Made by a program: the position numbers and the translations under genes. Under the pieces are notes generated by a model. It was not told the DNA's origin and did no database searches. It saw only the letters and a list, made by a program, of their open reading frames with translations. Positions 260 to 15,384 of a stretch of 23,153 nucleotides of DNA are shown one piece after another. This DNA is from a virus, in IMG/VR virus record IMGVR_UViG_3300007734_000759, positions 1 to 23,153 of that record, one strand, 5' to 3'. Every line of letters starts with the position of its first letter. Within the stretch, counting starts at the first letter, position 1.

Positions 260-292
260 TATCTTAACAAACCTTAAAATCTTGGAGAGGAG

Positions 293-323
293 TTGCATAC
301 TTGAATTCCTCTCCCTATCTTTA
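293..323 (+). promoter_or_regulatory. Bacteroidetes sigma-type promoter, cassette 1, overlapped by a hairpin
   Basis: TTG 293-295, 20-nt spacer, TATCTTTA 316-323. Resembles the Bacteroidetes -33 TTTG / -7 TAnnTTTG consensus. Inverted repeat GGAGAGGAGTT/AATTCCTCTCC. Confidence 0.75.
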
Positions 324-343
324 GGTATCAAACAAAAACAGTT

Positions 344-505
344 ATGAAAACATTTATTATTGACCTCTACACAGGAAAAGTGGATGTCCTTCCTAAAGGA
401 GAGTTTAAAGATGCTATTGATGGACTTGAGGAAGTAGTGAGTGAAGGTGGTATTACATCCTATAGAGGAGAAGAGTACATTGTTGTAGTTCTTAAAAAAC
501 CTTAA
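344..505 (+). CDS. Small hypothetical protein, 53 aa (MKTFIIDLYTGKVDV...VVVLKKP)
   Basis: Hand-translated; below the ORF-track cutoff. The ATG is the conserved GTTATG of element 1 and the stop lies in the second CTTAA of element 2. Confidence 0.8.
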   Translation: MKTFIIDLYTGKVDVLPKGEFKDAIDGLEEVVSEGGITSYRGEEYIVVVLKKP

Positions 506-511
506 CAAAGG

Positions 512-541
512 TTGCATATCGAATCAATAGGAGTATCTTTA
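512..541 (+). promoter_or_regulatory. Bacteroidetes-type promoter, cassette 2
   Basis: TTG 512-514, 19-nt spacer, TATCTTTA 534-541. Confidence 0.75.
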
Positions 542-569
542 GGTATCAAACAAATAAACAAAAACAGTT

Positions 570-665
570 ATGGTAGTAGTAATCTTTATGCTGTTCCTGA
601 TCTTGATGGGTCTAGGAAACATGAACAAGAAAATGAACAGGTACAATCGAACAAAACTAAAGTAA
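570..665 (+). CDS. Small membrane peptide, 31 aa (MVVVIFMLFLILMGLGNMNKKMNRYNRTKLK)
   Basis: Starts at the GTTATG of element 2. Hydrophobic N-terminus with basic tail; TAATG stop/start overlap with the next gene. Confidence 0.7.
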   Translation: MVVVIFMLFLILMGLGNMNKKMNRYNRTKLK

Positions 666-865
666 TGAAGAAAATCAGATTAGTAGGTCGCTTAGCGGCA
701 TCAGCTCTTATAGCAATCTTTCTTGAAGGTTTGATGACATTGGGTCATGCATACAACTTCTCAGAGTACGGACCAATGGGATGGATCGTGCAAGGTTTGA
801 TCTTGGTATTGGTAGCTTGGATTGGTGCTGAGTGGCATGACCACGAAGAGAAGTTGAATTCTTAA
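665..865 (+). CDS. Two-TM small membrane protein, 66 aa
   Basis: Likely true start of ORF 512..865 (MKKIRLVGRL...), translationally coupled via TAATG. Two hydrophobic segments; stop supplied by element 3. Confidence 0.8.
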   Translation: MKKIRLVGRLAASALIAIFLEGLMTLGHAYNFSEYGPMGWIVQGLILVLVAWIGAEWHDHEEKLNS

Positions 866-876
866 AAAACCTTAAC

Positions 877-911
877 GGAGTGGGATCATAAGATCCCATT
901 CCCTATCTTTA
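877..911 (+). promoter_or_regulatory. Hairpin-type cassette element 3 with -7 box
   Basis: GGAGTGGGATC-ATAA-GATCCCATTCC (877-902), then TATCTTTA at 904-911. Confidence 0.7.
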
Positions 912-931
912 AGTATCAAAAGCAAACAGTT

Positions 932-1480
932 ATGAAAAAAGCATTCGCATTAGCAGCATTGGTCCTATCCTTAGCAAGCTGCACAAAGTCAAAGTGGGAC
1001 GACAACCAACCTGTATGGGTTTATGAGTTTTGGTACAAGAAGTACATGATCTTGAATAACGGAGATACTGTACAAGGTATCAAAGTGAAACCGGATCAGT
1101 TTGGTAATCCAATCAAAGAGCTAATCAACTACAGCGGTCAAAGACCTTCAGCTCAAGGATGGACACCTATCGAATTGAATGCTGAGCAATTGGAAAACGT
1201 TCGTTGGAATTTAGGTAAGGATGATGGAGGAGCAAGGACGTTACAAGTTTGGAAGACAAGGTATGCAGGGAAGACTTTGAAAGAGATGATGAACTTCGGA
1301 GATCCAAACCATGATGGGTATGTTATAGATCCTGCATATGAGAATATGACTGTGGAGGATCTTAAAGCAATTGTTGAAGTATATGAACCTGGAATCTTGA
1401 TTGAGCATACTACGTACAAGTTAAGTCAAAGAGGAGAGACTACAAGGATCAGAGAAGAGATGTATTCCAAGAAAAACTAA
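932..1480 (+). CDS. Lipoprotein (paralog of 1795..2274)
   Basis: Type II signal peptide with lipobox: MKKAFALAALVLSLAS-C. Shares ILNNGDTV and YxNxTxxDxKxIV with 1795..2274. Confidence 0.85.
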   Translation: MKKAFALAALVLSLASCTKSKWDDNQPVWVYEFWYKKYMILNNGDTVQGIKVKPDQFGNPIKELINYSGQRPSAQGWTPIELNAEQLENVRWNLGKDDGGARTLQVWKTRYAGKTLKEMMNFGDPNHDGYVIDPAYENMTVEDLKAIVEVYEPGILIEHTTYKLSQRGETTRIREEMYSKKN

Positions 1481-1504
1481 TATCTTAAAAAACCTTAACA
1501 GGAG

Positions 1505-1534
1505 TTGCATCCTAAGCAATTGGTTGTATCTTTA
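1505..1534 (+). promoter_or_regulatory. Bacteroidetes-type promoter, cassette 4
   Basis: TTG 1505-1507, 19-nt spacer, TATCTTTA 1527-1534. Confidence 0.7.
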
Positions 1535-1557
1535 ATTCAAGAAAGGAGAACAAAGCA

Positions 1558-1728
1558 ATGGAACAAATTGGTCTTTATGTAATATCAGGATTGCTTGTAG
1601 CAAGCATGCTTGAATACCTTAATGGTCAAACAGGAAGTGATATCAAACTTAACTTGTTCGACAGATTATTGTTCGTTGTACTATGGCCTTTGTTTGGAGG
1701 TATGTTAGTAAAATCTCTAATATCTTAA
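1558..1728 (+). CDS. Small two-TM membrane protein, 56 aa (MEQIGLYVISGLLVASML...LWPLFGGMLVKSLIS)
   Basis: Hand-translated. Follows element 4; stop supplied by element 5. Confidence 0.75.
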   Translation: MEQIGLYVISGLLVASMLEYLNGQTGSDIKLNLFDRLLFVVLWPLFGGMLVKSLIS

Positions 1729-1744
1729 AAAACCTTAACACCGG

Positions 1745-1774
1745 TTGCAGATCCAACCATCAGTCGTATCTTTA
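1745..1774 (+). promoter_or_regulatory. Bacteroidetes-type promoter, cassette 5
   Basis: TTG 1745-1747, 19-nt spacer, TATCTTTA 1767-1774. Confidence 0.75.
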
Positions 1775-1794
1775 GTTATCAAACAAACACAGTT

Positions 1795-2274
1795 ATGAAA
1801 AAAGCAATCTTAATCATCGCAGCAGTAATCACATTGGCATCTTGCTCAAAGCCAGAGCCATGTTGGGTTCAATTCACCCACTACAACGAATACGTGATCT
1901 TGAATAACGGTGACACTGTCACCTACGAAGATGGATTCGTAATGAGTGGAATGGCTACTGGAGCAACAAAGAGACAACTAACTCCACAAGAGCAAGAGCA
2001 ACTACAAAACCATCTCGACACAATGTGTCGTACAACGGTGAAGGGTTTCGAACCATTCCGTGACAAGGGAGAGAAGTGGAGAGAGATGGATTCCATTACT
2101 GGAAAGAAGCATACGTTGGATTACTGGATGAAGTTTCAAAACCATACCATCAAGGAGGAGTACAAGAACCTTACAGCGGACGACGTTAAGATGATTGTAT
2201 GTGATTACTACTACACCTACCAAATGTTCATGGATGATGGAGAGAAGAGATTGTACTACGACATCTTCGAATAA
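1795..2274 (+). CDS. Lipoprotein (paralog of 932..1480)
   Basis: Lipobox MKKAILIIAAVITLAS-C; shared ILNNGDTV motif. Confidence 0.85.
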   Translation: MKKAILIIAAVITLASCSKPEPCWVQFTHYNEYVILNNGDTVTYEDGFVMSGMATGATKRQLTPQEQEQLQNHLDTMCRTTVKGFEPFRDKGEKWREMDSITGKKHTLDYWMKFQNHTIKEEYKNLTADDVKMIVCDYYYTYQMFMDDGEKRLYYDIFE

Positions 2275-2300
2275 AAAGCAATATCTTAAAAAACCTTAAC

Positions 2301-2335
2301 GGAGTGGGATCTTCGAATCCCATTCCCTATCTTTA
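2301..2335 (+). promoter_or_regulatory. Hairpin-type cassette element 6 with -7 box
   Basis: GGAGTGGGAT-CTTCGA-ATCCCATTCC (2301-2326), then TATCTTTA. Confidence 0.7.
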
Positions 2336-2356
2336 GGTATCAAAAGCAAACAAGTT

Positions 2357-2503
2357 ATGGCAGCAGTTTACAAAGTAGAAGTAGTTTCACATTGGAAAAA
2401 CTACACTAAGGAAGAACTTGAAAAGATATTGAACGAAGCAATTAAAAAGCAAATTGAAACAGAATCAAATGAGATTACTATCGAAGTGCAAGAAAGAGTT
2501 TAA
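2357..2503 (+). CDS. Small hypothetical protein, 48 aa (MAAVYKVEVVSHWKNY...EVQERV)
   Basis: Hand-translated; starts at the GTTATG of element 6. Confidence 0.8.
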   Translation: MAAVYKVEVVSHWKNYTKEELEKILNEAIKKQIETESNEITIEVQERV

Positions 2504-2514
2504 ATAAAAAAGTT

Positions 2515-2721
2515 ATGACACAACAAACAGCAGTAGAGTGGTTGGAAAATGAATACAATACAAAGGGTAAATTGACTGCAGTTGACTTTTACCAAGCCAA
2601 AGCAATGGAGAAGGAGCAAATCAAATTAGCATTCAGTATAGGAATGAATAGTAGTGTAGATTACTTTGATGGAGTTACTGATGAGGATGAGAATTACTAC
2701 AACGAAACATTCAATAAGTAA
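2515..2721 (+). CDS. Small phage hypothetical protein (QTAVEWL-type N-terminus)
   Basis: ORF track; A-rich leader ending GTTATG. The MTQQTAVEWL...AKAMEKEQI pattern is one I recall from aquatic phage hypothetical proteins. Confidence 0.8.
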   Translation: MTQQTAVEWLENEYNTKGKLTAVDFYQAKAMEKEQIKLAFSIGMNSSVDYFDGVTDEDENYYNETFNK

Positions 2722-2747
2722 GAGTTCTTAAAAAACCTTAACAAAGG

Positions 2748-2777
2748 TTGCAGATCCAATCAATAGGAGTATCTTTA
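2748..2777 (+). promoter_or_regulatory. Bacteroidetes-type promoter, cassette 7
   Basis: TTG 2748-2750, 19-nt spacer, TATCTTTA 2770-2777. Confidence 0.75.
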
Positions 2778-2798
2778 GATATCAAAAGCAAACGAGTT

Positions 2799-2921
2799 AT
2801 GAATTATACTGAAAAGGAGATAAAGGTTATAGAGCAAAGAGCATATGACAAAGGTAGAATGGAAGGGGTTGTAGTAACCTTACTAATATGCCTACTGGGT
2901 TTAATCCTTGTGTTACTATAA
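2799..2921 (+). CDS. Small C-terminally anchored membrane protein, 40 aa
   Basis: Hand-translated MNYTEKEIKVIEQRAYDKGRMEGVVVTLLICLLGLILVLL; starts at the GTTATG of element 7. Confidence 0.75.
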   Translation: MNYTEKEIKVIEQRAYDKGRMEGVVVTLLICLLGLILVLL

Positions 2922-2927
2922 TAAAAT

Positions 2928-3040
2928 AGTCAGGTGGCGGAATTGGTTAGACGCTGCCCGTGGAGGGTTGATTGGTTCCGTTCGACTCGGACGTTGGAAA
3001 TGGTGTTCCACAAATACAGGTTCGAATCCTGTCCTGACTG
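2928..3040 (+). ncRNA. Non-canonical tRNA-like RNA (113 nt) with expanded centre and no canonical anticodon arm
   Basis: Perfect acceptor stem AGTCAGG/CCTGACT, Leu-type D arm GCG-GAATTGGTTAGA-CGC and T arm ACAGG-TTCGAAT-CCTGT. About 60 nt lie between the D and T arms. Confidence 0.75.
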
Positions 3041-3084
3041 CAAAATAAAGAATTTAGGTATTTCTTAAAAAACCTTAACAGAGC

Positions 3085-3114
3085 TTGTCATTCAAATCAA
3101 TAGGAGTATCTTTA
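3085..3114 (+). promoter_or_regulatory. Bacteroidetes-type promoter, cassette 8
   Basis: TTG 3085-3087, 19-nt spacer, TATCTTTA 3107-3114. Confidence 0.75.
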
Positions 3115-3135
3115 GTTATCAAAAGAAACAAAGCT

Positions 3136-3315
3136 ATGACAAAGAATCAAAAAAGCAGATTAGTTGAGGTGATCAACTTAAACATCGAAGAAGCAAATCG
3201 TCTATTCAAAACAAAAGAACAGTCTGATGCTTACATCATCGGCTTCCTGCAAGGAGTATTGAGAGTAGTAAGAGATGAACTTGAAGAAGGTATAGAAGAA
3301 AAAGTAATATCTTAA
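3136..3315 (+). CDS. Small hypothetical protein, 59 aa (MTKNQKSRLVEV...)
   Basis: Start moved from 3085 to the ATG after element 8; stop supplied by element 9. Confidence 0.8.
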   Translation: MTKNQKSRLVEVINLNIEEANRLFKTKEQSDAYIIGFLQGVLRVVRDELEEGIEEKVIS

Positions 3316-3331
3316 AAAACCTTAACGAGAG

Positions 3332-3361
3332 TTGATCATTAAACATTCAGTCGTATCTTTA
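3332..3361 (+). promoter_or_regulatory. Bacteroidetes-type promoter, cassette 9
   Basis: TTG 3332-3334, 19-nt spacer, TATCTTTA 3354-3361. Confidence 0.75.
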
Positions 3362-3382
3362 GATATCAAAAGCAAACAAGTT

Positions 3383-3541
3383 ATGAAAACAATCATGTCA
3401 CTAATCGTAGTCGTTCTTATCTCAAGTTGTATGTCAACGAACGGATGTATCGGAGGAGCTGATCATAATAAGAGAGTAGCTCAGAAGAGACATCACTATC
3501 GAGCTAAACATCGTTCATACACTCACTCATATTACAACTAA
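3383..3541 (+). CDS. Small lipoprotein with His/Arg/Tyr-rich tail, 52 aa
   Basis: Starts at the GTTATG of element 9; lipobox MKTIMSLIVVVLISS-C. Confidence 0.75.
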   Translation: MKTIMSLIVVVLISSCMSTNGCIGGADHNKRVAQKRHHYRAKHRSYTHSYYN

Positions 3542-3580
3542 TCTAATTTCTTAAAAAGTCTTAACAAAAGAAAAAAAAAG

Positions 3581-3610
3581 TTGAAGATCGAAAAGTAAGT
3601 AGTATCTTTA
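3581..3610 (+). promoter_or_regulatory. Bacteroidetes-type promoter, cassette 10 (degenerate element)
   Basis: CTTAAAAAGTCTTAAC at 3550; TTG 3581-3583, 19-nt spacer, TATCTTTA 3603-3610. Confidence 0.7.
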
Positions 3611-3660
3611 AGTATTGAAAAAATAAACAAACATTTAAACAAACATTAAACAAAAACGTT

Positions 3661-3906
3661 ATGAAAAATTCAAAAAACAAAACAACTGAAACTCAAGTAG
3701 TTAACACAGTAGTTGAAAAAGTAATCTCTAAATCAGACGTATGTCGTGAGTTAGTTATTAAAGACTCTACTATTACTTTAAAGTATGTGAATCAAGAATT
3801 AACAAAGAGAGGTTTTAATACTATGTACTACTCTGAGTTACTTCGAGTTAAAGTTCAAGTTAAGAAGATGAACGAAAAAGCTAAGACTGAAGAAGTTACA
3901 GCTTAA
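3661..3906 (+). CDS. Hypothetical basic protein, 81 aa
   Basis: ORF track; starts at GTTATG after a leader with repeated TAAACAAA units. Confidence 0.8.
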   Translation: MKNSKNKTTETQVVNTVVEKVISKSDVCRELVIKDSTITLKYVNQELTKRGFNTMYYSELLRVKVQVKKMNEKAKTEEVTA

Positions 3907-3937
3907 GTAAAAAAAGAATATGTAAATGATTGATACT

Positions 3938-3964
3938 GAGGAGCGAGAGCTCCTCTTTCTGTTT
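3938..3964 (+). terminator. Hairpin / probable terminator closing the cassette array
   Basis: GAGGAGC-GAGA-GCTCCTC (GNRA loop) followed by TTTCTGTTT. Confidence 0.55.
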
Positions 3965-4182
3965 CAACGAGTAACGTAGAAAAAAAATCTCGAATATGTA
4001 GTGACGTAGAAAATAATACGATAGCACTATGCACATAGTATGCATGTACTATATACGTACTAATAACACACACATTATCATACATATACGCACTATCTAG
4101 TATATGAGCACCTAATACGTTGAAATATAGGAATTCTAGATTTTCGCTTAAAGGCCATATATATGTATATATGTATATATCC

Positions 4183-4285
4183 CTTTCCCAACCCTTCTTA
4201 ACCACCTCCACCCTTTACCTTTCCCAACCCTCCTCTGGCGTAGAAGGCACCCCTACCTGTTTCCACCCTCGTTTTCTTTCCCAAC
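4183..4285. repeat. Three copies of CTTTCCCAAC in a pyrimidine-rich tract
   Basis: Copies at 4183-4192, 4219-4228 and 4276-4285. Confidence 0.75.
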
Positions 4286-4364
4286 TTTTTGGCGTATATT
4301 TCAATAGGGCAAAAAAAATTGAAACAAAAATTTTTCACCTATAGAAGATATATATTTATCATTA

Positions 4365-5543: not shown

Positions 5544-6173
5544 ATGAAAAAACTAATGGTTGCGGTTGTATTAACGCTATTGACGTTATTTAATTTTCAA
5601 ACTGAGGCAAGACCTCGAACCCATAAAAAGCACGTGGGTAAAACCACGCACACACGAGTTCACAACCGCAAAAAGCACAAACCTCATCATAAGAAGGTTA
5701 GAAGAAAAAAGAATGTAAAAAGGAAAAATCGTTGTCCAAAATTCGCGCGGACTAATCCTAAGGCTGTTCACGACATAGTACTTGATATGAGTGCTAAGCA
5801 TGAGGTACCTGCTGAGATTGTGTTTGCCGTAATGTATTATGAGACTGGATACCGTGGTGTAGATCACAAGTCTTATAATGGTAAACGTGTCTCAAGATGT
5901 GGTGCCGTAGGACCTATGCAAATTATGCCTCGTTATGCTGGGAAGGTATTAGGACGTAGGGTGTCTCGTTCCGAGCTTCTAACCAACTACCATACTAACA
6001 TTGAGGTTGGAGTTAAGATGCTTGCTCGTCACTATAAGATGTACGGTTCTTGGTTGAGAGCATTGGGAGCGTACTCAACAGGCAGACCTTATGCCAACAA
6101 GTACGGACGTAGGATTCTCAACAAAGCTAATCAGATTGAAGAGCAAATGCTTATAGCAGGTACGAATTGTTAA
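5544..6173 (+). CDS. Exported lytic transglycosylase (SLT domain) with basic His/Lys-rich linker
   Basis: Signal peptide; SLT motifs AVMYYETG (catalytic Glu), GAVGPMQI, NIEVGVKML and ALGAYSTG. Confidence 0.85.
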   Translation: MKKLMVAVVLTLLTLFNFQTEARPRTHKKHVGKTTHTRVHNRKKHKPHHKKVRRKKNVKRKNRCPKFARTNPKAVHDIVLDMSAKHEVPAEIVFAVMYYETGYRGVDHKSYNGKRVSRCGAVGPMQIMPRYAGKVLGRRVSRSELLTNYHTNIEVGVKMLARHYKMYGSWLRALGAYSTGRPYANKYGRRILNKANQIEEQMLIAGTNC

Positions 6174-6219
6174 AATTCCTTAACACAGTTGCTATTTATG
6201 ATACAAGTTCGTATCTTTA
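6169..6219 (+). promoter_or_regulatory. Degenerate cassette-type element/promoter upstream of the lipoprotein and tRNA cluster
   Basis: GTTAAAATTCCTTAAC 6169-6184; TTG 6189-6191, 20-nt spacer, TATCTTTA 6212-6219. The spacer contains TATTTAT. Confidence 0.7.
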
Positions 6220-6257
6220 TATTATAACACAACAGAAACATTTAAAACCAAATTTAT

Positions 6258-14411: not shown

Positions 14412-14683
14412 TGGAAATAATTATAGGAATCACATCAGGCCTGCTTTTAATAGCGGGCTTTGTTATTTGGAATCTACTAAGCAAAGTAGAACGCCAAGAA
14501 GATTTAATTGAGAAGTATCAACAATATCTTACATCTTTAGACACATCAATTAAACTTTCATCAAAGAGATTGGAAGAAATAGATGTTAAAGGAATGTTTA
14601 GTTCCGATGATGAGATAGGTTGGTATTTTAAACAGATAAAAGAAATCCAATTAATATTGGATGACTATAAGCTTAAAATATAA
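14411..14683 (+). CDS. Membrane-anchored hypothetical protein
   Basis: N-terminal TM, coiled coil, FSSDDEIGWYF; TAATG coupling at both ends. Confidence 0.8.
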   Translation: MEIIIGITSGLLLIAGFVIWNLLSKVERQEDLIEKYQQYLTSLDTSIKLSSKRLEEIDVKGMFSSDDEIGWYFKQIKEIQLILDDYKLKI

Positions 14684-15384
14684 TGGTGGAGAAAAAATCT
14701 AAAAACTATTTTACAAAGGAAACTGAAGATGCTATAGTTCTATACAATAATAGTAGTGATTCTTACTATAAAAATAAGATATACAATGAAAAGATAAGAT
14801 ATGCTTTCTTTAAGCTAACAGAAAATATCATACATACGTATAAATTTTACTACACAGAAGAAACTTCCATTGAGGATCTACAGCACGAAGTTACCACCTT
14901 TCTACTATCTAAGATACACCTATTTGATATATCGAAAGGTGCTAAAGCTTATTCATACTTCGGTACCATTGCCAAGAGGTATTTAATAATGACAAATACC
15001 AAAAACTATAAACGTAAAATAGAAAAAACATCGGTATCTGAGATAGAGGATAGTGCGGATTTTAGTTATAACCTAACAGATCAGGATAACTTACAAGATG
15101 AGCTATCAGACTATATTAATAAATTCATAGACTACGTAACAGATAATATATATGAGTTGTTCCCTAAGGATGAAGATGCCCAGATAGCTGATGCAATACT
15201 TGAATTGTTTAGGAAACGTATGAGCTTGGATGTGTTAAATAAAAAAGCTCTTTACATTTATATTAGAGAACAGATAGACGTTAAGACTCCCAAAATTACA
15301 AAGGTAGCTAACGATTTACATAGTATCTTTAAGAGAGGTTACATCCACTATATAGAGGAAGGTTATGTTTCTTTTGAAAATTAA
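14683..15384 (+). CDS. Phage sigma-factor-like protein (sigma70 region 2; gp55-like late sigma candidate)
   Basis: EDLQHEVTTFLLSKIHLFDISKGAKAYSYFGTIAKRYLI resembles sigma region 2.2-2.4; N-terminal KNYF. Confidence 0.65.
   Translation: MVEKKSKNYFTKETEDAIVLYNNSSDSYYKNKIYNEKIRYAFFKLTENIIHTYKFYYTEETSIEDLQHEVTTFLLSKIHLFDISKGAKAYSYFGTIAKRYLIMTNTKNYKRKIEKTSVSEIEDSADFSYNLTDQDNLQDELSDYINKFIDYVTDNIYELFPKDEDAQIADAILELFRKRMSLDVLNKKALYIYIREQIDVKTPKITKVANDLHSIFKRGYIHYIEEGYVSFEN

What the first reader, a model, noticed from the sequence alone, without database searches (positions are those of the whole stretch)
263..3906. Phage gene-cassette array: 10 units, each bounded by a conserved stop + operator + promoter + leader element
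Seen: every 230-620 bp the same ~75-bp element recurs, with one or two short, mostly unrelated genes between copies, many of them membrane proteins or lipoproteins. The element supplies the downstream ATG context. In four cases (505, 865, 1728, 3315) it also supplies the upstream gene's stop codon. Known: T4-type phage PeSL (promoter early stem-loop) repeats promote shuffling of small early genes, and integron attC arrays are an architectural analogue. Inference: this is a modular, recombination-shuffled array of early or host-takeover genes in a Bacteroidota phage, where DNA captured between two elements becomes an expressed gene. No recombinase is visible in the window.
Basis: partly seen in the sequence, partly recalled or inferred. 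Interest (0 to 1): 0.85.

Follow-up and report, generated by a model that had tools for sequence, protein, structure and literature searches.

The report
Phage promoters doubling as gene-swap sites
An uncultured phage, likely of Bacteroidota bacteria, puts a copy of one predicted early promoter in front of each of dozens of small genes, and related phages differ by whole gene units joined inside that repeat, so the repeat likely serves as the short-homology crossover site that swaps accessory genes, as already known for T4-type phages.

Summary
The repeat is real. Ten copies lie in 262-3660, and they end a 36-copy, one-strand array that crosses the origin of a 159-kb circular Immutovirus-like myovirus genome. 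Each copy has a TTAA-N6-TTAAC box, a Bacteroidota-type -33/-7 promoter and an A-rich leader.

Metagenomic relatives show unit deletions, insertions, a duplication and order changes. All 11 of 11 joints with both parents in hand switch inside the element, in 11-47-nt identity windows at no fixed base. The genome has a UvsX-like gene and no integrase match.

Against: gene junctions without the element also break often (18 of 38, versus 20 of 28; p=0.08), and no excised circles were shown. The 'operator' looks more like a UP element or activator site.

Verdict: a Bacteroidota-type variant of T4 PeSL shuffling. One unit carries an anticodon-less tRNA-shaped RNA of a large phage family. The scan noted both features before on other genomes (e1-5825587, e1-5390908).

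The parts
262..343 (+). Element 1: box shifted 10 bp upstream, -33/-7 promoter with embedded hairpin, leader
344..505 (+). 53-aa ORF, stop inside next box; unit absent in L011
490..569 (+). Element 2
570..665 (+). 31-aa ORF with hydrophobic N-terminus; a similar-looking 30-aa ORF heads its own unit in L055 (by eye)
665..865 (+). 66-aa predicted membrane ORF, stop inside next box; its homologue (family hn12) has its own element in relatives
860..931 (+). Element 3, with hairpin 877-902
932..1480 (+). 182-aa predicted lipoprotein, no family match
1483..1557 (+). Element 4
1558..1728 (+). 56-aa predicted membrane ORF, stop inside next box
1723..1794 (+). Element 5
1795..2274 (+). 159-aa predicted lipoprotein sharing a DNA stretch with 932-1480
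2284..2356 (+). Element 6, with hairpin 2301-2326; left parent of the joint that removes units 6-7 in L014 and L070
2357..2721 (+). Two ORFs, 48 aa (2357-2503) and 68 aa (2515-2721)
2726..2798 (+). Element 7
2799..2921 (+). 40-aa ORF with one predicted TM helix
2928..3041 (+). tRNA-shaped RNA gene with acceptor, D and T arms but no canonical anticodon arm; member of a large phage family with hypervariable middles
3063..3135 (+). Element 8
3136..3315 (+). 59-aa ORF, stop inside next box
3310..3382 (+). Element 9
3383..3541 (+). 52-aa predicted lipoprotein; unit absent in L038
3549..3660 (+). Element 10: box shifted 10 bp upstream, long leader
3661..3906 (+). 81-aa conserved ORF closing the dense array; 28 homologues, paralogue at genome 157,576; fold not obtained
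6168..6257 (+).

Best explanation
The repeat matches the Bacteroidota -33/-7 promoter consensus and is predicted to be a strong host-polymerase early promoter, and related phages differ by whole gene units joined inside it, so it likely doubles as the short-homology crossover site that deletes, inserts, duplicates and moves small accessory genes. Shown: the anatomy, the 36-copy one-strand arc, unit-level differences between relatives, and hybrid elements at the joints with no fixed switch point. Inferred: (1) host primary-sigma RNA polymerase fires each copy early in infection, starting about 4-5 nt after TATCTTTA; (2) the TTAA-N6-TTAAC box, with half-sites at about -54 and -44, boosts the promoter as a UP element or activator site; (3) selection for many strong promoters creates 10-45-nt identity patches that the phage's general, T4-like recombination machinery (UvsX-like and gp32-like genes) or host enzymes use for unequal or inter-phage crossovers; (4) any crossover in the element rebuilds a working promoter and start context, so the products are viable and persist. 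Gene-wise gain and loss by other routes runs alongside.
For: Promoter: Bacteroidetes -33/-7 consensus TTTG/TANNTTTG, with T-12 and 4-5 nt to the start site (PMC6847099, passages). TTG lies 19-20 nt before the -7 box in 110 of 161 distinct elements. TATCTTTA lies within 60 nt upstream of 20 of 62 array ORFs and 1 of 69 structural ORFs; a different motif, ATATTTAT, precedes 13 of 69 structural ORFs, and a sigma-70-region-2-like gene sits at window 14683 (E 0.001, below the Pfam cut-off). Box: 141 of 161 at 26-28 nt from the -7 box, 17 at 36-38 nt, none at 29-35. Immuto has the same core promoter array at the syntenic place with A-rich upstream tracts instead. Shuffling: 111 distinct unit adjacencies, 75 not in this genome, 32 of those in at least 2 loci; 20 of 77 unit tails have at least 2 different followers. 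In 21 same-upstream/different-downstream pairs, 20 keep the 14 nt before the box and 14 keep the spacer. In 39 different-upstream/same-downstream pairs, 37 change those 14 nt and 18 keep the spacer; background spacer sharing is 1.5%. All 11 of 11 three-way joints switch inside the element: 5 at the -7 box or leader, 3 at the box, 3 spanning the spacer; windows 11-47 nt; 6 with no residual mismatch. Mid-gene points are broken in 0 of 26. Enzymes: UvsX-like (E 1e-13) and gp32-like SSB; 0 matches for PF00589, PF00239, PF03837, PF04404 and PF04098 in a genome rated 100% complete.
Against: Gene junctions without an element are broken in 18 of 38, against 20 of 28 at elements (Fisher p=0.077 per junction; 32 of 79 versus 55 of 96 per observation, p=0.034 but pseudo-replicated). 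Stops lie in or within 30 nt of the box in 123 of 134 cases, so 'at the element' partly coincides with 'at a gene boundary'. L013 has a joint inside a gene (159,039 to 157,160). Order is mostly kept: 4 of 6 joints between units of this genome are forward skips. Loci were fetched by the element pattern, many share accession prefixes and are not independent, and short-read assembly chimeras at repeats cannot be excluded for joints seen once. No excised circle and no transcription start was shown (one search holds contigs only). The -7 box ends in A where F. johnsoniae has a nearly invariant G-5.
Confidence: 0.72

Rival explanations
1. Merely repeated early promoters. Genes come and go by illegitimate or microhomology recombination anywhere, selection keeps the events that fall between genes, and the element is there only because every gene boundary has one.
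For: Plain junctions break nearly as often (18 of 38 versus 20 of 28); stops abut the box; one mid-gene joint in L013.
Against: Joints are clean hybrids of two different element copies, with exactly one element left after a unit is lost (L011, L014, L070, L038, L058, L082, L068). The spacer travels with the upstream gene in 14 of 21 pairs and with the downstream gene in 18 of 39, against 1.5% background. A diverged tandem duplication of a whole unit exists (L072, 82% and 92% to the reference).
Confidence: 0.15
2. Integron-like or otherwise dedicated system: the palindromic box is a recombinase site and a phage enzyme cuts there.
For: The box is the most conserved part and reads as an inverted repeat with a 6-nt centre; 3 of 11 switches map to it. 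A RecA/KaiC-like ATPase with a weak Sak4-like hit is encoded inside the array at genome 146.3 kb (phrog_124 E 6e-4).
Against: No tyrosine or serine recombinase match; 5 of 11 switches lie at or after the -7 box, away from the palindrome; the box-to-promoter distance is helically phased; immuto has the array with TTAA-N6-TTAA in only 2 of 23 elements.
Confidence: 0.07
3. The unit rearrangements are mostly assembly chimeras among co-occurring strains.
For: All relatives are short-read metagenome contigs; Logan contigs break at elements; 43 of 75 non-reference adjacencies occur in one locus only.
Against: Exact identity between element copies is short (median 18, maximum 30 nt among the ten window copies; maximum 41 over 595 pairs in the genome). 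32 of 75 new adjacencies recur. L014 and L070 give the same deletion with different switch points. Many units are unrelated genes absent from this genome.
Confidence: 0.06

Closest known systems
PeSL (promoter-early stem-loop) cassettes of T4-type phages RB49/phi1, PST/T4, nt-1/KVP40 (Arbiol et al. 2010, PMC2839356, passages read; Comeau et al. 2014, PMC4122927, parts 1-2 of 3 read)
   Same: Repeated host-sigma early promoter with an AT-rich upstream part and a translation start, dense in a hyperplastic region of small ORFans; indels and replacements leave one chimeric element; crossovers at several places in the element, including between the -10 box and the ATG; no dedicated recombinase, T4-like recombination genes present.
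   Different: Bacteroidota -33/-7 promoter and a Shine-Dalgarno-less A-rich leader instead of sigma-70 boxes and SD. The upstream part is a fixed, phased TTAA-N6-TTAAC box. A stem-loop is present in only 8 of 36 copies and overlaps the -33 element and spacer instead of lying upstream. The box often supplies the upstream stop codon. Mini-circles not shown here.
Flavobacterium phage vB_FspM_immuto (Immutovirus; MW353175-7)
   Same: Closest cultured relative by the baseplate protein (45% aa). Same core promoter and leader repeated before single small genes, between the DksA-like/HNH genes and the HD-hydrolase/sigma-like genes.
   Different: Lacks the fixed box (2 of 23 elements with TTAA-N6-TTAA). 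None of the 12 window cargo proteins and 7 of 70 other array proteins hit its array region. Isolates 2-6A and 3-5A show the same gene layout there, so they do not test shuffling.
Integron attC cassette arrays (recalled)
   Same: One or two genes per unit, units bounded by a repeat, unit-level excision and insertion.
   Different: Integrons use an IntI tyrosine recombinase, a fixed crossover and mostly promoterless cassettes. Here every unit has a promoter, the crossover floats, and no integrase matched.
T4 stable RNAs rnaC and rnaD (recalled; search listing only), for the RNA at 2928-3041
   Same: Phage RNA genes near tRNA clusters whose job is unknown; tRNA-like ends (recalled).
   Different: No sequence comparison was made. 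Here one constant frame holds many unrelated middles: 64 families among 75.

Membership tests
PeSL | Strong host-sigma early promoter repeated in a hyperplastic region of small ORFs | tested here: met
   By sequence only: 36 copies in one arc, Bacteroidota -33/-7 type; activity not measured
PeSL | Terminator stem-loop just upstream of the promoter in each copy | tested here: not met
   Strong hairpin (z below -3.5 against base shuffles) in 8 of 36 copies, 3 of 10 in the window, overlapping the -33 element and spacer; the terminator scan found 4 sites against 2.3 +/- 1.8 in shuffles
PeSL | Shine-Dalgarno sequence plus start codon at the 3' end | tested here: not met
   A-rich leader ending in GTT-ATG with no SD in most copies, as expected for Bacteroidetes; the functional equivalent is present
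PeSL | Indels and replacements between relatives leave a single chimeric element | tested here: met
PeSL | Element-bounded mini-circles form during infection and in virions | tested here: inconclusive
   Only assembled contigs could be laid; back-joints have short sides or are explained by element similarity
PeSL | T4-like phage with general recombination genes and no dedicated recombinase | tested here: met
   Myovirus head, portal and sheath genes, gp32-like and UvsX-like hits (that these PHROG families are the T4 ones is recalled); negative
Integron cassette array | IntI tyrosine recombinase | tested here: not met
   PF00589: 0 matches at E<=1, control rings in 14 of 14
Integron cassette array | Fixed crossover position in the site | tested here: not met
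   Switch windows range from the box to the ATG
Host-regulator operator or regulon site | Same box at the same distance in host promoters | tested here: not met
   2 of 61 Bacteroidota-phylum genomes at 26-28 nt, against 8 of 61 at the control distance 31-33 nt
tRNA (for 2928-3041) | Acceptor, D and T arms | tested here: met
   Rfam RF00005 36 bits, E 9e-5; D stem GCG/CGC in 57 and GTG/CAC in 7 family members
tRNA (for 2928-3041) | Canonical anticodon arm | tested here: not met
   57 nt stand where the model has 18; 0 of 75 family members with a canonical D arm pass my anticodon-arm test. ARAGORN misses it by default and calls it Ser only by assuming an intron

The most novel reading that the evidence does not exclude
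The array is an evolved gene-trading platform with two nested cassette systems. Promoter-bounded units are swapped through identity patches as short as 11-20 nt by a phage annealing/RecA-like ATPase that the array itself encodes (genome 146.3 kb). The element's built-in stop codon and start context let foreign DNA become an expressed early gene on arrival. Among the cargo, an anticodon-less tRNA frame carries interchangeable RNA inserts, possibly as decoys or guides against host defences.
Probability: 0.15. Interest if true: 0.8.

Novelty: new variant of a known kind. Interest (0 to 1): 0.5.

Why it matters
It extends promoter-mediated modular shuffling, described for enterobacterial and Vibrio T4-type phages, to a distant lineage with a different promoter grammar, which suggests the trick follows from having many strong early promoters rather than from one sequence. 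The short (11-47 nt), floating crossover windows and a cultured relative with the same array (immuto on Flavobacterium LMO8) make mini-circle formation and the enzyme behind it directly testable. The array also delimits a pool of dozens of unannotated early genes that are candidates for host takeover or counter-defence, and it carries a tRNA-shaped RNA family for which my searches found no description.

Tried and rejected
The window 4365 protein found no related viral loci. The capsid search gave 80 loci at 60-77% identity with 2-kb flanks that do not reach the array, so they were not used.

Host-activator idea: the GTDB scan gave 120 matches, 44 of the first 80 Bacteroidota by title (my hand count), but the distance control showed no preference for the phage spacing; rejected. 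only re-found the five sites that had brought those genomes in. E. coli sigma-70 promoters are fewer than chance (8 versus 14.7).

The '572 goes back to 1' joint is not read as a circle: the element at genome 159,205 has nearly the same leader as element 2 and lies about 100 nt before position 1 (inference). The X4 joint 2352 to 3135 matches the L014/L070 deletion but has only 23 nt on its short side, so it is not counted as support. X1 may be the source sample.

Cargo function: PHROGs and Pfam gave no hit above cut-off for the window's array proteins (the 31-aa peptide was not scanned); ESM Atlas scores were under 0.9; the PDB sequence search gave nothing meaningful. No structure prediction of the 3661 protein was obtained, so the idea that it is a helix-turn-helix factor for the box stays untested. 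No read or contig evidence was obtained for the part of the array before the contig origin, and no RNA run was laid.

Middles of the tRNA-shaped family fold only slightly better than shuffles (mean z -0.8; 9% below -2), so a conserved inner structure is not claimed.

Rows dropped: 8 of 82 metagenome loci were removed as overlapping pieces of the same contigs before all unit counts.

Literature: no paper on this array in Bacteroidota phages turned up in searches, and none on the tRNA-shaped family in searches (listings only). The original immuto genome paper and its supplements were not among the listings and may mention the repeats.


Full report
Setting. The window is the first 23,153 bases of a 159,435-base contig whose ends overlap by 127 bases, so it is a circular 159,308-bp genome, rated 100% complete. 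It encodes a myovirus head, portal, terminase and sheath, a DNA polymerase, DnaB, a gp32-like SSB and a UvsX-like recombinase. Its baseplate protein is 45% identical to that of Flavobacterium phage immuto, 160 kb. The host is not known; Bacteroidota is inferred from this kinship and from the promoter type.

Observation. Ten copies of the element lie in 262-3660, 218-623 bp apart. A PWM finds 39 copies in the genome, all on the + strand: 36 in one arc from 128.3 kb across the origin to 6.2 kb, and 3 elsewhere. Shuffled genomes give 0-1 per strand. The four shared stop codons are confirmed, and 50 of 134 distinct elements carry the upstream stop inside the box. Membrane proteins and lipoproteins are common in the window part (6 of 11 screened) but rare in the rest of the array (3 of 70).

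Anatomy. (i) TTG, 19-20 nt, TATCTTTA matches the Bacteroidetes -33/-7 promoter, TTTG/TANNTTTG with T at -12 and the start 4-5 nt downstream (PMC6847099, passages); the TTG spacing holds in 110 of 161 distinct elements. The last base is A, not the usual G, here and in immuto. Structural genes are preceded more often by another motif (ATATTTAT, 13 of 69), and a sigma-like gene lies at window 14683 (weak Pfam hit), so the element is read as the early, host-polymerase promoter (inference). (ii) The leader is A-rich and lacks a Shine-Dalgarno sequence, as in Flavobacterium. (iii) The box TTAA-N6-TTAAC lies 26-28 nt from the -7 box in 141 of 161 elements, 36-38 nt in 17, and never 29-35. One helical turn of shift, upstream of -33, fits a UP element or activator site better than a repressor operator (inference from established promoter geometry, recalled). 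Immuto has A-rich tracts at this place. Host genomes show no preference for this spacing (2 of 61 versus 8 of 61 at a control distance), so a host regulon is not supported. (iv) A strong hairpin occurs in 8 of 36 copies and overlaps the -33 element and spacer; 6 of the 8 genome copies with the shifted box have it. Whether it terminates read-through is untested.

Shuffling. A metagenome scan gave 98 stretches in 82 loci; 74 were kept after removing 8 overlapping pieces. Cut at elements, they give 111 distinct unit adjacencies, 75 absent from this genome and 32 of those seen in at least two loci. Examples: unit 1 missing (L011); units 6-7 missing (L014, L070, with different switch points); unit 9 missing (L038); an extra unit between 157,126 and 157,532 (L033, L072); a diverged tandem duplicate (L072); order changes (L058; L011 and L028 jump back several kb after unit 2; a 69-70% homologue of the 159,205 unit follows unit 5 in L035 and L071). 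Near-identical flanks localise the switch. With the same upstream gene, 20 of 21 pairs agree up to the box and 14 through the spacer; with the same downstream gene, 37 of 39 differ just before the box and 18 share the spacer; unrelated pairs share a spacer in 1.5% of 8,123. In all 11 joints with both parents at 93% or better, the switch lies in the element: 5 at the -7 box or leader, 3 at the box, 3 spanning the spacer, in windows of 11-47 nt, 6 of them without a residual mismatch (some of these are the same event seen from both sides).

Evidence against. Measured on this genome's own junctions, 20 of 28 element junctions, 18 of 38 plain gene junctions and 0 of 26 mid-gene points are broken in at least one relative; element versus plain gives p=0.077. 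Gene-wise turnover therefore also happens without the element, and one joint lies inside a gene (L013). Order is mostly conserved (4 of 6 joints between this genome's units are forward skips). The loci were selected by the element and are not independent. Chimeric assembly is possible for singletons, though exact identity between copies is short (median 18 nt, maximum 30, among the ten window copies). Contigs of four public runs bridge several elements in the window's order (X1, possibly the source sample) and show no convincing circle.

Mechanism. No tyrosine or serine recombinase, RecT, ERF or Rad52 family matched. A floating crossover within short identity, in a phage with UvsX-like and gp32-like genes, points to general homologous or annealing-type recombination (inference). 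A RecA/KaiC-like ATPase with a weak Sak4-like hit inside the array is a candidate helper, untested. A crossover anywhere in the element restores a promoter and a start context, so products would be viable. Depending on the switch point, the moving unit is either promoter plus gene, or gene plus the following promoter. Confidence 0.72; rivals are plain promoters with boundary selection (0.15), a dedicated recombinase (0.07) and assembly artefact (0.06).

Comparison. It works like the PeSL cassettes of T4-type phages: chimeric elements at indels, crossovers between the -10 box and the ATG or in the upstream part, no special recombinase, mini-circles shown by inverse PCR (PMC2839356, passages; PMC4122927, parts 1-2 of 3). 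It is not filed as a PeSL, because the defining upstream stem-loop is missing in most copies and there is no Shine-Dalgarno sequence. Cyanophage S-PM2's ORFanage was judged not PeSL-driven (PMC4503421, passages). It is not an integron. Searches returned no paper on such arrays in Bacteroidota phages; the library lacks most subscription journals.

An unexpected cargo. Position 2928-3041 is a tRNA-shaped gene with 57 nt where the anticodon arm should be. Its exact 24-nt 3' end was found in 130 loci from 6 of 64 parts of IMG/VR, about 1,300 stretches by the tool's estimate. Of 148 matches, 138 have a matching 5' acceptor strand (118 exactly the same heptamer); 75 have a canonical D arm, none of these a canonical anticodon arm, and their middles (20-130 nt) fall into 64 families. 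The D stem covaries. Relatives carry other versions in the array, one directly behind an element (L044). Searches found no description. Its function is unknown; I treat it as cargo.

Earlier notes of this scan (AI notes, not evidence; looked up after my own readings were written down): e1-5825587 reports the same kind of promoter array on another genome, e1-5390908 the same RNA family, and e1-5957254 and e1-5948765 gene exchange at the tRNA-like ends.

Verdict. Observation confirmed and larger than reported; interpretation right at its core; a new variant of a known kind. Interest 0.5.

Noticed in passing
window 2928-3041 (+); L292-L421; L026, L031, L044, L056, L058, L075: Anticodon-less tRNA-shaped RNA with a constant frame and hypervariable middle, often several different copies per contig (L302 has 4); about 1,300 IMG/VR stretches by estimate.
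   Followed up: partly
genome 146,311-147,147 (L008:6876-7709): RecA/KaiC-like P-loop ATPase with a weak Sak4-like hit, encoded as a unit of the array; candidate short-homology recombination helper.
   Followed up: partly
window 3661-3906 and genome 157,576-157,818: Paralogous, strongly conserved 80-aa proteins; one closes the dense array in several relatives. The conserved core might be a three-helix DNA-binding fold (by eye); no structure obtained.
   Followed up: partly
window 3907-4364: Gap after the array with a terminator-like hairpin (3938-3955), TA-rich repeats and a C-rich stretch, where GC skew turns negative; possible replication origin or genome end.
   Followed up: no
window 14683-15384: Sigma-70-region-2-like gene (Pfam E 0.001), 45% identical to an immuto gene at the same place; candidate late sigma factor. 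ATATTTAT(A/C) occurs 24 times on the + strand, 14 of them in the structural stretch 28-76 kb.
   Followed up: partly
genome 84,754; 94,263; 98,776: Three element-like promoters outside the array; the first is in front of the gp32-like SSB and UvsX-like genes.
   Followed up: no
genome 94.8-101.9 kb: QueD-, QueE- and FolE-like genes, as in immuto's deazaguanine DNA-modification cluster.
   Followed up: no
genome about 110-128 kb: Long block of ORFs that by their N-termini and by synteny with immuto's glycosyltransferase and sugar-epimerase block look like sugar-modifying enzymes; mostly not scanned.
   Followed up: no
L009:41316-41872 (immuto 66.3-66.9 kb): Short ACCCGT-containing repeats at about 12-bp spacing and TTTAAG/TTAAAG 18-bp repeats (42375-42446) in the middle of immuto's array; possible origin iterons.
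   Followed up: no
L173, L189, L245, L259, L266, L271, L287: Several cellular genomes (Bacteroidota where the title was shown) keep a TTAA-N6-TTAAC box 26-28 nt before TATATTTA in front of one apparently orthologous exported-protein gene; the wider spacing control gave no support for a general regulon.
   Followed up: partly
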